A DNA stretch of 20,990 nucleotides from Chiloscyllium plagiosum (taxonomy: Eukaryota). The notes beneath the pieces are model-generated. The model ran no database searches. It had not been told where the DNA came from and saw only the letters and a list, made by a program, of their open reading frames with translations. The stretch covers positions 12,944,846 through 12,965,835 of the forward strand of contig NC_057749.1 in NCBI RefSeq assembly GCF_004010195.1, written 5' to 3'. Below are positions 2,706-12,610 of the stretch, in pieces (the first letter of the stretch is position 1; each line of letters begins with the position of its first letter). A program made the translations under genes and the position numbers.

Positions 2706-3077
2706 GAAGACCTGGTGTTCTTGACCAGTTTGGTATCTTGTGCACTAGGTGGCATCTGACCTACGATTGCTTGGCGTTAGCTGCATTCTGACTTTTGCAT
2801 GGAGTATGAGGTTTAATTTTAAAGTTAGGGTGCATTTCTGTAAATGATAATACAGACAGCTGTCCATTATGCTGTGTTAACACAGGCATTTCTAAAAATT
2901 TAATTGTGTACAATTTATTATAAATACCTCTAGCCACTCTTCCCTACGTCAAAGACATCTAGGAAATGACTGCCAGACTACTCAGATCCCTTGGCATCAT
3001 GGTAGCCCACAAACACATAAATAGGAAGTGAGCCTACACCACCAGTACTTCATCTGGAGGCTCACTGAAGATGTTGT

Positions 3078-3390
3078 GGGCGGCACGGTGGCACAGTGGT
3101 TAGCACTGCTGCCTCGCAGCGCCAGAGACCCGGGTTTAATTCCCGCCTCGGGCGACTCTGTGTGGAGTTTGCACATTCTCCCCGTGTCTACGTGGGTTTC
3201 CTCCGGGTGCTCCGGTTTCCTCCCACAATCCAAAAATGTGCAGGTCAGGTGAATAGGCCACACTAAATTGCCCGTAGTGTTAGGTGAAGGGGTAAATGTA
3301 GGAGAATGGGTCTGGGTGGGTTACGCTTTGGCGGGTCGGTGTGGACTTGTTGGGCCGAAGGGCCTGTTTCCACACTGTAGGGAATCTATC
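3078..3390 (+). mobile_element. Full-length tRNA-derived V-SINE (HE1-like), copy 1
   Basis: Pol III A box TGGCACAGTGG (3089-3099), B box GGTTTAATTCC (3133-3143, C>T), V-domain gtgtggagtttgcacattctccccgtgtct...ggtttcctcccaca, and a CR1-like 3' tail. A second copy is in the window. Confidence 0.92.
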
Positions 3391-7523: not shown

Positions 7524-7850
7524 TTTTTTTTTTTGATTAGATTACTTAGTGTGGAAACAGGCCCTTCGGCCCAACAAGTCCACACCGACCCGCCGAAGCG
7601 TAACCCACCCAGACCCATTCTCCTACATTTACCCCTTCACCTAACACTACGGGTAATTTAGCATGGCCAATTCACCTAACCCCTGCACATTTTTTTGGAT
7701 TGTGGGAGGAAACCGGAGCACCCGGAGGAAACCCACGCAGACACGGGGAGAATGTGCAAACTCCACACAGAGTCGCCTGAGGCGGGAATTGAACCCGGGT
7801 CTCTGGCGCTGTGAAGCAGCAGTGCTAACCACTGTGCTACCGTGCCGCCC
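7524..7850 (-). mobile_element. Full-length tRNA-derived V-SINE (HE1-like), copy 2
   Basis: Reverse complement is ~95% identical to 3078-3376 by hand alignment. A box TAGCACAGTGG, intact B box GGTTCAATTCC, ends in taatctaatc plus A11 (T run 7524-7534). Confidence 0.93.
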
Positions 7851-8221
7851 ATTAACTCTGCTGTACTCTGCTTCCTTAATTCTTCCTCCACTCTCCACCC
7901 AACCATTCCCTACACCACAAGAGTAGAAGTGTATTTTATTTAGTTATCCTAAGGCACAGCATGCAATACCTTTTACTAAATGACAGTCAGTTATGGGAAG
8001 GAATTCTGACCTCTGTATAGGCAGAATGGGTGGAGATATGATTGTACAATCTCTCCCCAGCAACTGAGTGGCTGAGTGTTATCTCCTGTATGACCTTCCT
8101 CATAATTATCTTCCTTTACAGTTTGTACTGGGCCATGCCAAAATAAACTCTCGTCTAGCTGCAAGACCCAAACAGAACATTCCCTTTTTCTCAGTGCAAA
8201 TGTTCTTAATGAGATCACAGT

Positions 8222-10763: not shown

Positions 10764-12071
10764 GTATGGGGCCCATAGGGGTGGCACCTGCCTGATTTAA
10801 ACCAATTGAACAGGTGGAAGTAGAACATTAGTTGTTCTGTGCTTTTTACTAACACCCATGCAGGCATTGGTTTTCTTGGTCAGCAGTTTTGGTGCTATGC
10901 ACTGTACAACCGGTAATTTTTTGGGGGGAGGGGGGCGTGGGAGGAGGAGGAGTGGGGTGGGTGGGAAGAGTGTCAGTTAGCTCATTTGGCTGGTTGGTAT
11001 CCTTGCAGCTCAGGTCACCTCTCCCCTCACCTGATGGATGAAAGTCCTTGTGTCTGCGTGGTGCAGTTACTACTTTTGCAACCAATAAACCCCTTAATGC
11101 ATCAATCATATTTGTGCTGCACACTATTTGCCAGTACTGTTTGCATAGGTTCAGATCTTTCCCTCACCATTGACCAAGTTGAGTGAGACAGTCTATAATC
11201 TGTAGATGTACACACAATTTCTGCTAGGAAGGTAGAAATGGAATTGTTTGGTTCCCACTGCCTTCCATAGGCAGCATGAACTGCAGAAACTAGAAAGGTT
11301 TCATGTTTCAGCTTGGATTTGTGCTCTGTGAGCTGACCACAGTTGGTGTGCTGCTAAAATTGGTGTCTGCATGTTAGAGTGAAACTCTGTCTCCCTCGCA
11401 GCGATGCAGTAACTAATCTGGAATGTGGGAACTGTTTGACCTGTCGAGTGAGAAATTGGTTTGGTTTGGTTTGTGACAGCTTCCCACACTTCAATAAATT
11501 GCCAGTGTGCGTCCAGATTCTGTTATGAATGCTCAGTGACTGGACAGAACACCAAAGGGCACCCTGGATCAGTGGGGGTTGTGCAGTAGCAGGGATTTAC
11601 CCTCAGAAGGGGAAAATAATAATGGCACAGAAGACTGCAATGGATTAGTTGCAGTGGATCTATTCCATTGTGAAAGAGAGGTTAACTTCTGTCTCCTGTT
11701 TTCTATCTTCTAACTTCAACTCACCAAACTTCTAACTATTTTCTAATTGCATCCAAGTCCCATTCATCCTGACCTCTCTGCTCACTTAAGGCATTGCTTA
11801 ACTGACGTCCAAAGTTTCCTCAGTGTGGGTTCACTTCTGGCCGAGGTCACTATGAATGTCTTGCTGCCTAACCTTTTCACTAGCCTAAGATGTGATTTTT
11901 CTCTCTCGTGCACGTGCTGTTTGCTCAAAGCAGCCTTATGGTCCCATGGCAACTTTACCTTTTATCACCAGTCAAACCCTTGATGCAGAGATAATATTCA
12001 TGCAGCACACTATTTGCTTTCGAAATCTGTAGTCATCCCTGACTCTGTCACCCTGACTCTATCCTCTCCTT

Positions 12072-12286
12072 GCTGAAACTTTATTGCTGGAACAGCACAA
12101 CAGGTAAGGCAGCATCTAGGGAACAGAAGATTCGACGTTTCGGGCACACGCCCTTCTTCTTCCTGAAGAAGGGCGTGTGCCCGAAACGTCGAATCTTCTG
12201 TTCCCTAGATGCTGCCTGACCTGTTGTGCTGTTCCAGCAATAAAGTTTCAGCTTTGATCTCCAGCGTCTGCAGACCTCACTTTCTC
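12072..12286 (+). mobile_element. Non-autonomous foldback element, probably derived from a Penelope-like element (PLE) pseudo-LTR
   Basis: Inverted arms 12072-12159 and 12165-12252 (87/88 complementary), 5-nt spacer, 34-nt tail, flanking 15-bp direct repeat ctctatcctctcctt (12057-12071, 12287-12301). Confidence 0.88.
12160..12193 (+). ncRNA. Minimal hammerhead-ribozyme-like motif
   Basis: TTC-CTGAAGA-A-GGGC-gtgt-GCCC-GAAA-C-GTC-GAA: CUGANGA box, 4-bp stem II, GAAA box, GUC triplet, 3-bp stem I (TTC/GAA). Stem III is reduced to the palindrome ACGT. Confidence 0.6.
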
Positions 12287-12301
12287 CTCTATCCTCTCCT
12301 T

Positions 12302-12610
12302 CCAGACTTAGACTTTCTGTGCTGCTCTAATTCTGACCTCCTTGAACATCCCTAATTTTCCTCGTTCACCACTAGCATCTTGCCTTCAGCTGTTGTGCCC
12401 AAGTTATGGAATTGCCTTTCTGGATCTCTACAGCTTGTGTTTTTGTTTTGTATCAAGTGCTCTGTAAAGCCCACCTCTCTTTAATCATTGTTTAGTCTCC
12501 TGCCCAGTATCTCCTTGGGTTGCTTAGTATCAGTTTTTTTTTGTTTTGCCCATGTGAAGTGCTTTAGGATGTTTTACTATGTTAGAGGTTCTCTGTAAAT
12601 GCATGTTTTG
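12302..12610 (+). mobile_element. Old L2-like LINE 3' end flanking the foldback insertion
   Basis: Decayed recalled motifs aattctgacctc, tgccttcagctg..ggaatt, tgtgaagtgctttaggatgttttactatgttagagg..taaatgca. Confidence 0.5.

What the first reader, a model, noticed from the sequence alone, without database searches (positions are those of the whole stretch)
12057..12301. Young foldback retro-insertion: 88-bp near-perfect palindrome, 15-bp TSD and 34-nt asymmetric tail
Seen: arms 12072-12159 and 12165-12252 pair at 87/88 positions (only A12106/G12218 mismatched) around a TTCCT spacer. A 34-nt tail (12253-12286) lies on one side only, and an exact 15-bp direct repeat flanks the unit. CpGs are retained in a CpG-poor background. 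Known: Penelope-like elements (PLEs) often insert with an inverted pseudo-LTR copy and a short 3' tail, whereas MITEs have symmetric ends. Inference: a recently mobile, non-coding PLE-dependent miniature element consisting only of inverted pLTRs, possibly an uncatalogued family.
Basis: partly seen in the sequence, partly recalled or inferred. Interest (0 to 1): 0.8.

Follow-up and report, generated by a model that had tools for sequence, protein, structure and literature searches.

The report
Young fold-back Penelope retroelement insertion
The hairpin-shaped 218-base insert is a very recent, dead-on-arrival double copy of the tail end of a Penelope-like jumping gene, a known kind of insertion, still absent from another individual of the same species.

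Summary
In detail: an 88-nt inverted repeat (87/88), a one-sided tail and an exact 15-bp target duplication. It is not a self-contained miniature element. It is one of thousands of insertion products of a Penelope-like element (PLE) family. The arm-to-tail junction occurs 14,612 times in the host genome. About half of 60 sampled places are fold-backs. A copy with a long open frame carrying RT and GIY-YIG matches ends in the same sequence. Short tandem derivatives of 205-224 nt also exist.

The arm carries the minimal hammerhead motif described for PLEs. The centre of the palindrome differs from copy to copy, and the two arms stop at independent points. Each fold-back was therefore made at insertion, most likely from two cDNAs primed from both nicked target strands. 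One arm always starts at the tail-less site and the other at the tail site: 0 of 30 fold-backs have two tails.

Contigs from another individual and from a related species join 12056 directly to 12287, which is the empty site. The insertion is therefore polymorphic and the family recently active. This is a known kind of element, and the scan already found such PLE fold-backs elsewhere in this genome.

The parts
12057..12071 (.). Left copy of the target-site duplication (15 nt exact; the first 3 nt, CTC, are also the last 3 nt of the family tail, so the duplication is 12-15 bp).
   Evidence: The empty allele carries a single copy (X5 record 24 and X14 record 9 join 12056 to 12287).
12072..12159 (-). 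Inverted, tail-less arm. It is the reverse complement of family unit positions 137-222/224. Its outer end sits exactly at the tail-less end point (start site 1).
   Evidence: 94.2% to the unit, minus orientation. All 58 fold-back pairs examined have this arm ending at unit 222-224 or truncated short of it, never with a tail.
12160..12252 (+). Direct arm, family unit positions 132-224.
   Evidence: (95.6% to the unit).
12160..12194 (+). Minimal type-I hammerhead motif, + strand only. Helix I 5' side is UUC at 12160-12162 (one pair short of the family's AUUC). CUGAAGA is at 12163-12169, with an extra A at 12170. Helix II is GGGC/GCCC at 12171-12182. GAAA is at 12183-12186, palindromic CG at 12187-12188 and UC at 12189-12190. 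The predicted cut is after 12190. Helix I 3' side is GAAU at 12191-12194.
   Evidence: Read. The feature list comes from PMC4209133 (passages). The MFE of the isolated family segment forms exactly helices I and II. No Rfam hammerhead model matched.
12239..12244 (+). AATAAA hexamer 8 nt before the arm end. It is kept in all 28 aligned copies; its role is unknown.
12253..12289 (+). 37-nt tail, family unit positions 1-37. It is present on this side only and ends at the second end point (start site 2).
   Evidence: (97.3% to unit 1-37). In 1638 places the same sequence runs on into the internal region of longer copies.
12287..12301 (.). Right copy of the target-site duplication.

Best explanation
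The unit 12072-12289 is a dead-on-arrival insertion product of a canonical endonuclease-bearing Penelope-like element (PLE) family. It is not an element in its own right.

Shown:
- The arms are the last ~90 nt of the PLE unit (3' UTR/pseudo-LTR with a minimal hammerhead).
- The tail is the first 37 nt of what follows that end in tandem or longer copies.
- Insertions of the family end either exactly at the arm end (site 1) or 37 nt further on (site 2).
- About half of the tail-bearing insertions carry an adjacent inverted second copy.
- The centre junction and the inner end of each arm differ from copy to copy.
- This insertion is absent from another individual.

Inferred mechanism: the PLE protein cut both target strands about 15 bp apart. 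Each 3' end primed reverse transcription of family RNA at an internal start site, one at site 1 and the other at site 2. Both cDNAs ran to, or nearly to, the 5' end of a short RNA (mode near unit position 131). They were then joined head to head by repair, giving the palindrome with a private junction. The copy lacks the sequence downstream of the tail, and as RNA it would fold into one long hairpin that buries the hammerhead. It is most likely inert.
For: Family size and layout:
- At least 40 look-alikes at 92-97% identity were scored.
- The arm-tail junction pattern has 14,612 hits and the arm-end pattern 25,141 hits. Reversed-pattern controls gave 0.
- Of 60 places taken in list order on contig C1, 30 are clear fold-backs and 3 more are atypical ones (L048, L051, L060). 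About 24 are solo arm+tail copies and 3 are tandem or complex.

PLE identity:
- L111:580-3261:- is an 893-aa open frame. It matches RVT_1 at 33 bits (cutoff 29.6) and, downstream, GIY-YIG at 21.2 bits (cutoff 22.6).
- This frame is followed by a 3' UTR that is 100% identical to unit 117-224 and stops exactly at the arm end.
- The C-terminal protein query found 146,117 first-look candidates, with 134 scored at 87-100% identity.
- Tandem arrays have periods of 205 and 224 nt. One multi-unit insertion has its own 14-bp duplication.

Made at insertion:
- The centre differs among the 28 aligned copies.
- In the 30 fold-backs, the inner ends of the tail arm and the tail-less arm differ in both directions, for example 201 vs 131 and 137 vs 159. 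That excludes a simple snap-back of one cDNA.
- Duplications are 12-17 bp in nearly all fold-backs.
- The base before the tail-less arm is A or T in 48 of 53.

Two end points:
- 17 of 20 tail-less places are true solo copies ending at site 1.
- 0 of 30 fold-backs carry two tails and none carries zero tails.

Same template for both arms:
- 55 of 58 fold-backs have concordant subfamily haplotypes.
- The window copy shows two rare variants in both arms.

Youth:
- Arm-arm mismatch is 1 of 86 here and 26 of 4563 overall.
- CpG is retained.
- X5 record 24 (same species label, another sample) and X14 record 9 (related species) join 12056 to 12287. X1 and X2 contigs run from the flanks into the element.

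Literature:
- The purified PLE protein cleaves and extends both strands and starts at two adjacent internal sites whose interval is the tail (PMC11167929, main text read).
- An inverted 5'-truncated copy plus a one-sided 30-40-bp tail is typical of PLEs (PMC8557442, passages).
Against: - No Rfam hammerhead model matches the arm or the tandem array, even at E up to 10. The hammerhead call rests on a manual match to the published minimal-motif features and on one MFE fold.
- The GIY-YIG match is just under Pfam's cutoff.
- No complete copy with 5' pseudo-LTR, full ORF and 3' end was seen. Several longer loci contain N runs that I left alone.
- In vitro, the published protein showed no difference in start site between the two strands (PMC11167929). 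The strict one-tail rule seen here is therefore not predicted by that work.
- Four fold-backs in which both arms are truncated have similar inner ends (144/153, 157/172, 180/165, 191/191). That hints that the two cDNAs are not always independent.
- Identical centre junctions recur in a few copies (L004/L005, L012/L013, L022/L023). Chance can explain this, given the clustered end points, but it does not exclude occasional re-copying.
- The samples are exact-match places from the first 16 Mb of one contig, so they favour young copies.
Confidence: 0.85

Rival explanations
1. A self-propagating non-autonomous fold-back element. In this view the arm-spacer-arm-tail unit is itself transcribed and retrotransposed in trans by a PLE, as a family of its own.
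For: The layout recurs many times with different target duplications. A few copies share the same centre junction (L004/L005, L012/L013, L022/L023).
Against: At least 25 distinct inner-end combinations occur among 30 sampled fold-backs. Centre fillers differ between copies. Fold-backs with long arms taken from the autonomous element's 3' UTR exist (L048, L060), so the form is produced from ordinary PLE RNA. The unit lacks the region downstream of the tail, which the studied PLE needs for template use (PMC11167929). As RNA it folds into a hairpin of -181 kcal/mol.
Confidence: 0.06
2. The product is the same but made differently: one cDNA primed at the tail site folds back on itself and self-primes. 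The endonuclease then trims the returning strand at the tail-less site.
For: This would explain naturally why exactly one arm has a tail (0 of 30 with two) and why both arms share a haplotype (55 of 58). Craig et al. attribute the tail to endonuclease-mediated resolution (PMC8557442, passage).
Against: A snap-back predicts that the tail-less arm never reaches further inward than the tail arm. In at least 16 of 30 fold-backs it does, by up to 70 nt (for example L086 201 vs 131, L059 192 vs 133). L010 has arms of two different subfamilies, with 4 mismatches at diagnostic sites.
Confidence: 0.08
3. A DNA-transposon MITE with long terminal inverted repeats, or an assembly artefact.
For: There are long, near-perfect inverted repeats. 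No public contig spans the whole palindrome at this locus.
Against: Target duplications are 12-17 bp and variable. The tail is one-sided, the centre is variable, and solo half-copies carry their own duplications. The sequence is continuous with an RT/GIY-YIG element. Filled-site flanks are seen in two further runs, and a precise empty site with a single 15-mer in two others.
Confidence: 0.01

Closest known systems
Insertion units of canonical endonuclease-positive Penelope-like elements (Penelope/Poseidon, Neptune type), as described by Arkhipova and co-workers (PMC8557442, passages; PMC11167929, main text)
   Same: The family has RT followed by a GIY-YIG endonuclease, and a hammerhead-bearing terminal repeat. 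It forms partial tandems and strong 5' truncation. An adjacent inverted 5'-truncated copy is common, as is a 30-40-bp tail at one end only. Insertions show two end points separated by the tail, and the target nick favours A/T.
   Different: Here both copies are cut down to about 90 nt, so nothing but a near-perfect palindrome plus tail remains. This miniature form makes up about half of the young insertions sampled. The one-tail rule is strict in this sample (0 of 30 exceptions), whereas the papers say 'often'. The clade (Poseidon or Neptune) was not determined.
Animal non-LTR retrozymes (tandem hammerhead repeats; bioRxiv 10.64898/2026.07.22.740005, abstract and Results part 1 read)
   Same: The family includes 205-224-nt head-to-tail arrays that carry a type-I minimal hammerhead and share their sequence with the PLE terminal region. 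The preprint reports retrozymes in one cartilaginous fish and monomer derivatives in many species.
   Different: The window copy is not tandem and could not form a dimeric hammerhead. Circular RNA and self-cleavage were not tested. The preprint passages I read do not describe fold-back monomers.
Twin priming of human L1 (5' inversions) - recalled, not from a call
   Same: The second target strand also primes on the RNA, giving an inverted 5' part joined to a direct 3' part inside one target duplication.
   Different: In L1 the two parts are neighbouring, non-overlapping segments. Here both arms copy the same segment, because each starts at a fixed internal start site.
Fold-back/MITE DNA transposons
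   Same: Short, non-coding, with long inverted repeats and high copy number.
   Different: MITEs have symmetric ends and short duplications of fixed length (recalled). This unit is asymmetric, has 12-17-bp duplications and a private centre, and derives from a retroelement.

Membership tests
Endonuclease-positive Penelope-like element (insertion product) | Related longer copies encode RT followed by a C-terminal GIY-YIG endonuclease | tested here: met
   the 893-aa frame of L111 matches RVT_1 at 33 bits (cutoff 29.6; aa 358-541) and GIY-YIG at 21.2 bits (cutoff 22.6, so just under; aa 777-807). L101 gives the same weak GIY-YIG match.
Endonuclease-positive Penelope-like element (insertion product) | The short copy shares its sequence with the 3' end of the coding element | tested here: met
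   L111's 3' end is 100% identical to unit 117-224; window arms match L111 at 91-94%. L044, L052, L078 and L098 run from the arm upstream into the ORF end.
Endonuclease-positive Penelope-like element (insertion product) | Adjacent inverted 5'-truncated copy | tested here: met
   30 clear fold-backs among 60 sampled places.
Endonuclease-positive Penelope-like element (insertion product) | [quoted passage not shown] | tested here: met
   37 nt at 12253-12289. 0 of 30 fold-backs have two tails. Tail-less solo ends exist in 17 of 20 places checked.
Endonuclease-positive Penelope-like element (insertion product) | Partial-tandem (pseudo-LTR) arrangement in the family | tested here: met
   Arrays of 2.5-2.8 units. 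Arm-internal-arm-tail units in L119 and L120. Not present at the window locus itself.
Endonuclease-positive Penelope-like element (insertion product) | Clade assignment by RT phylogeny (Poseidon, Neptune, etc.) | not tested
   No reference PLE proteins were compared.
Minimal hammerhead of metazoan PLEs (Cervera and De la Pena 2014) | Core CUGANGA ... GAAA ... [quoted passage not shown] | tested here: met
   Read against the feature list in PMC4209133. The MFE of the 48-nt family segment gives helix I (4 bp) and helix II (4 bp) with an open core. The window copy keeps only 3 of the 4 helix-I pairs.
Minimal hammerhead of metazoan PLEs (Cervera and De la Pena 2014) | Match to a curated hammerhead covariance model | tested here: not met
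   No hammerhead family appears at gathering score or at E up to 10. The 2014 paper itself says that these motifs, which lack helix III, needed their own descriptor.
Minimal hammerhead of metazoan PLEs (Cervera and De la Pena 2014) | Self-cleavage (as a dimer) | not testable with these tools
   Needs an in vitro assay.
Animal non-LTR retrozyme | Head-to-tail repeats of a hammerhead-bearing unit; circular RNA | tested here: inconclusive
   Relatives form 205-224-nt arrays. The window copy is a single inverted pair. RNA was not examined: no RNA holder was listed.
MITE / fold-back DNA transposon | Symmetric terminal inverted repeats and a short target duplication of fixed length | tested here: not met
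   The tail is one-sided. Duplications are 12-17 bp in fold-backs and shorter in tail-less solos. The centre is variable.

The most novel reading that the evidence does not exclude
The thousands of young fold-backs in this genome record a strictly asymmetric double priming. In every fold-back, one cDNA starts at the tail-less site and the other at the tail site, and both come from the same RNA or the same source. Solo insertions, by contrast, use either site at about 25:17.

The boldest reading is that the two polymerases of one PLE dimer sit at the two ends of the 37-nt tail on a single RNA, and each is primed by one nicked DNA strand. Solo copies would then be events in which only one of the two cDNAs was kept. 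That would make this genome, where the family is still polymorphic, a natural readout of the unsolved PLE integration mechanism.
Probability: 0.3. Interest if true: 0.55.

Novelty: new member of a known kind. Interest (0 to 1): 0.3.

Why it matters
For annotation, near-perfect short palindromes with a one-sided 37-nt tail in this genome should be masked as PLE insertion products. They should not be called MITEs, microRNA hairpins (Rfam gives sub-threshold miRNA hits) or a new element class.

For biology, the empty allele shows that a PLE family has been active recently in this lineage. The large set of young insertions gives in vivo numbers on start-site use, arm end points and duplication lengths. 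These can be set against the single in vitro study of a PLE protein. None of this changes what is known about the kind of element.

Tried and rejected
- **Rfam:** scans of the window, the locus and a tandem array found no hammerhead family. They gave only sub-threshold miRNA-type hairpin hits and TCL6_1 noise.
- **Snap-back model:** a single-cDNA snap-back was rejected on the sign of the inner-end differences.
- **Hammerhead cut as RNA 5' end:** arms run 26-36 nt upstream of the predicted cut (unit 162/163), so this was rejected as the main end point. Only a minor cluster of inner ends lies at 156-165.
- **Polyadenylated 3' end at the AATAAA:** no copy has an A tail.
- **Full-length autonomous copy:** L101-L104 are decayed or gapped. 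L103, L111, L112, L115, L118 and L119 contain N runs, which I did not pursue. The 206-nt variant internal segment led to ~630-nt internally deleted units, not to a full element.
- **Window ORFs:** 9 of the 11 window ORFs of 110 aa or more were sent to Pfam, and none had a match.
- **RNA evidence:** no RNA holder was listed, so nothing can be said on expression.
- **Spanning contigs:** no laid contig spans the whole palindrome.
- **Literature:** searches with 'Penelope-like' plus hammerhead/pLTR/tail and plus shark/inverted/polymorphic listed no paper on this family in cartilaginous fish. The preprint's supplements are closed, so its cartilaginous-fish families could not be compared.
- **Not done:** comparison with Dfam or Repbase, for which no tool is available.

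Full report
**Observation**

One search reports inverted arms 12072-12159 and 12165-12252, 88 nt long, 99% complementary and 5 nt apart. It also reports an exact 15-nt direct repeat at 12057-12071 and 12287-12301. Reading, the only arm mismatch is A12106 opposite G12218. CpG observed/expected is 0.65 inside 12072-12289, against 0.20 in the neighbouring 2 kb and 0.26 in the whole window.

Two details change on comparison with relatives:
- The tail is 37 nt (12253-12289). Its last three letters overlap the right-hand repeat, so the duplication is 12-15 bp.
- The 'spacer' TTCCT is templated sequence of the longer, tail-bearing arm.

**A large family**

The window lies in a 3.56-Gb genome of 101,977 contigs.
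- The 245-nt query found 2112 first-look candidates. The 40 places scored (80 matches in all, because each palindrome also matches in reverse) are 92-97% identical and cover the same arm-arm-tail span.
- A 31-nt pattern across the arm-tail junction has 14,612 hits, and a 31-nt pattern for the arm end has 25,141. Reversed-pattern controls gave 0 in both.
- An alignment of 28 copies shows fixed outer ends and a fixed tail, and a different target duplication at every copy. The centre of the palindrome differs from copy to copy: the inner ends of both arms shift and the filler letters vary.

**What the arms are**

- The tail runs on into further sequence in 1638 places, some of them head-to-tail arrays spaced 194-224 bp apart.
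- Two arrays have periods of 205 and 224 nt. One multi-unit insertion has its own 14-bp duplication.
- Copies that extend inward past unit position 117 continue into a 3' UTR and the end of an open frame.
- One such locus, L111, has an 893-aa open frame matching RVT_1 (33 bits, cutoff 29.6) and, further downstream, GIY-YIG (21.2 bits, just under the 22.6 cutoff).
- Its 3' end is 100% identical to unit 117-224 and stops exactly at the arm end, without a tail.
- The C-terminal part of this protein has 146,117 first-look candidates in the genome, with 134 scored at 87-100% identity.

The arms are therefore the terminal ~90 nt of a canonical RT plus GIY-YIG Penelope-like element. The 205-224-nt and ~630-nt units are internally deleted derivatives of it. 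I did not see a complete full-length copy. Several longer loci hold N runs, which I left alone.

**Hammerhead**

On the + strand only, the direct arm reads CUGAAGA, an extra A, GGGC-N4-GCCC, GAAA, CG, UC. AUUC lies upstream and GAAU downstream. These are the traits listed for the minimal hammerheads of metazoan PLEs in PMC4209133 (passages):
- a G10.1-C11.1 pair;
- palindromic positions 15.2-16.2;
- a helix I of 4-5 bp;
- no helix III, so the ribozyme is active only as a dimer.

The minimum-energy fold of the isolated 48-nt family segment forms exactly these two helices. No Rfam hammerhead model matched, so this identification is manual. In the window copy helix I has lost one pair. The whole unit would fold as one hairpin of -181 kcal/mol, so the motif is almost certainly idle here.

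**How the fold-back arose**

I took 60 places in list order from contig C1 and compared them with a 224-nt unit.
- 30 are clear fold-backs and 3 more are atypical ones (L048, L051, L060). About 24 are solo arm+tail copies and 3 are tandem or complex.
- Inner ends cluster at unit 128-137 in all classes, but they range up to 201.
- Within a fold-back, the tail arm and the tail-less arm end at different points, in either direction (for example 201 vs 131 and 137 vs 159).

A single cDNA folding back on itself cannot give a tail-less arm that reaches further inward than the tail arm. That happens in at least 16 of the 30. The arms are therefore best read as two separate cDNAs.

The arms nevertheless nearly always share a subfamily haplotype: 55 of 58 pairs, with L010, L018 and L074 as exceptions. 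The window copy has two rare variants in both arms. Both cDNAs therefore come from the same RNA or the same source.

Duplications are 12-17 bp in nearly all fold-backs. The target base before the tail-less arm is A or T in 48 of 53.

**Two end points and a strict rule**

- Of 20 arm ends that lack the tail junction, 17 are genuine solo insertions stopping at the arm end with their own duplications. Two are fold-backs with one tail, and one is a mutated tail copy.
- Solo insertions thus use the tail site and the tail-less site at about 25:17.
- Yet 0 of 30 clear fold-backs have two tails, and none was found with no tail.
- If each arm chose its site independently, about 42% of tail-selected fold-backs would have two tails. 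The chance of 0 in 30 is then about 1e-7 (my hand calculation).

**Fit with the literature**

- Frangieh et al. 2024 (PMC11167929; I read the whole main text) found that a purified PLE protein cleaves and extends both DNA strands. Reverse transcription starts at two adjacent internal sites, and the interval between them is the genomic tail.
- Craig et al. 2021 (PMC8557442; passages) describe the adjacent inverted 5'-truncated copy and the 30-40-bp tail, often at one end only, as standard PLE features.
- Li et al. 2026 (bioRxiv 10.64898/2026.07.22.740005; abstract and first part of Results) report tandem hammerhead retrozymes as PLE derivatives in vertebrates, including one cartilaginous fish.

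The window unit is a miniature of this known picture. What the papers do not predict is the strictness of the one-tail rule, because the in vitro work saw no strand difference in start site. My preferred mechanism, two primings from the two nicked strands, is inferred and not shown.

**Age and polymorphism**

I laid contigs of four coded public runs on 11850-12500.
- In X1 and X2, contigs run from the left flank into the arm (to 12099 and 12093) and from the tail into the right flank (from 12265 and 12267). This is the filled site.
- X5 has the same species label but comes from another sample. Its 3222-nt contig joins 12056 directly to 12287.
- X14 has another species label. Its 328-nt contig makes the same join.
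- Both of these carry G11988T.

Contigs show presence, not absence, so zygosity is open. X1 or X2 may also be the assembly's own sample.

Together with 1 mismatch in 86 between the arms here, and 26 in 4563 across the 58 pairs, this dates the insertion as very recent. It also shows that the family has been mobile within the species' history.

**Earlier notes**

After forming this reading I looked at the scan's notes. Several windows of the same genome were already judged to hold PLE hammerhead relics and truncated fold-back copies. They agree with this report and add nothing I had not tested.

**Verdict**

This is a real, very young and polymorphic insertion of a known kind. It is a new member, not a new class. 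It is also not a self-contained miniature element.

Noticed in passing
L121-L140 versus L041-L100 (contig C1 of the own genome): Target-duplication length seems to depend on the class of insertion. Fold-backs have 12-17 bp (mode 14-15), tail-bearing solos 10-16 bp, and tail-less solos only about 6-13 bp (read by eye). Unexplained.
   Followed up: partly
L114 18-1312: About 35 head-to-tail copies of a 38-nt unit that is 97.6% identical to a stretch inside the PLE open frame (L111 reverse strand 3106-3146). This is a minisatellite born from the element's coding region.
   Followed up: no
L119 and L120, about 1200-1960: ~630-nt non-coding units laid out as arm, tail plus 5' internal part, a further 158-nt segment, arm, tail. 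This is a pseudo-LTR layout without an ORF. It is a second type of internally deleted derivative, beside the 205-224-nt tandem units.
   Followed up: partly
window 3076-3379 (-) and 7532-7851 (+): Two copies (91%) of another repeat, which also flanks the PLE copy in L111 and into which that copy had inserted. Its class was not determined.
   Followed up: no
window 12037-12063: The target lies at a short tandem duplication (CCCTGACTCTGTC / CCCTGACTCTATC, 14 nt apart, family D3). Craig et al. mention a microsatellite insertion bias for some PLEs. Not examined here.
   Followed up: no
window 12239-12255 (loose ends, table 7): Many contigs in all four runs match up to about 12239 and again from about 12255, but carry a different ~16-nt stretch between. 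This suggests a sister family that differs exactly around the tail-less end point.
   Followed up: no
window 11988: G>T is seen only on the two contigs that carry the empty site (X5 and X14, table 3). The empty allele therefore sits on a haplotype shared with the related species.
   Followed up: no
family unit positions 128-137 (window 12160 region): Inner ends of arms and of solo copies pile up just upstream of the hammerhead, at TCATTCC. This resembles an initiator-type transcription start (consensus recalled, not tested). It may be the 5' end of a short family RNA. A minor pile lies at 156-165, near the predicted ribozyme cut.
   Followed up: partly
L048 (C1:1863396-1864326) and L060 (C1:5366716-5367646): Two long-arm fold-backs with the same left flank but different right flanks. 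They may lie inside another repeat or a rearranged duplication.
   Followed up: no
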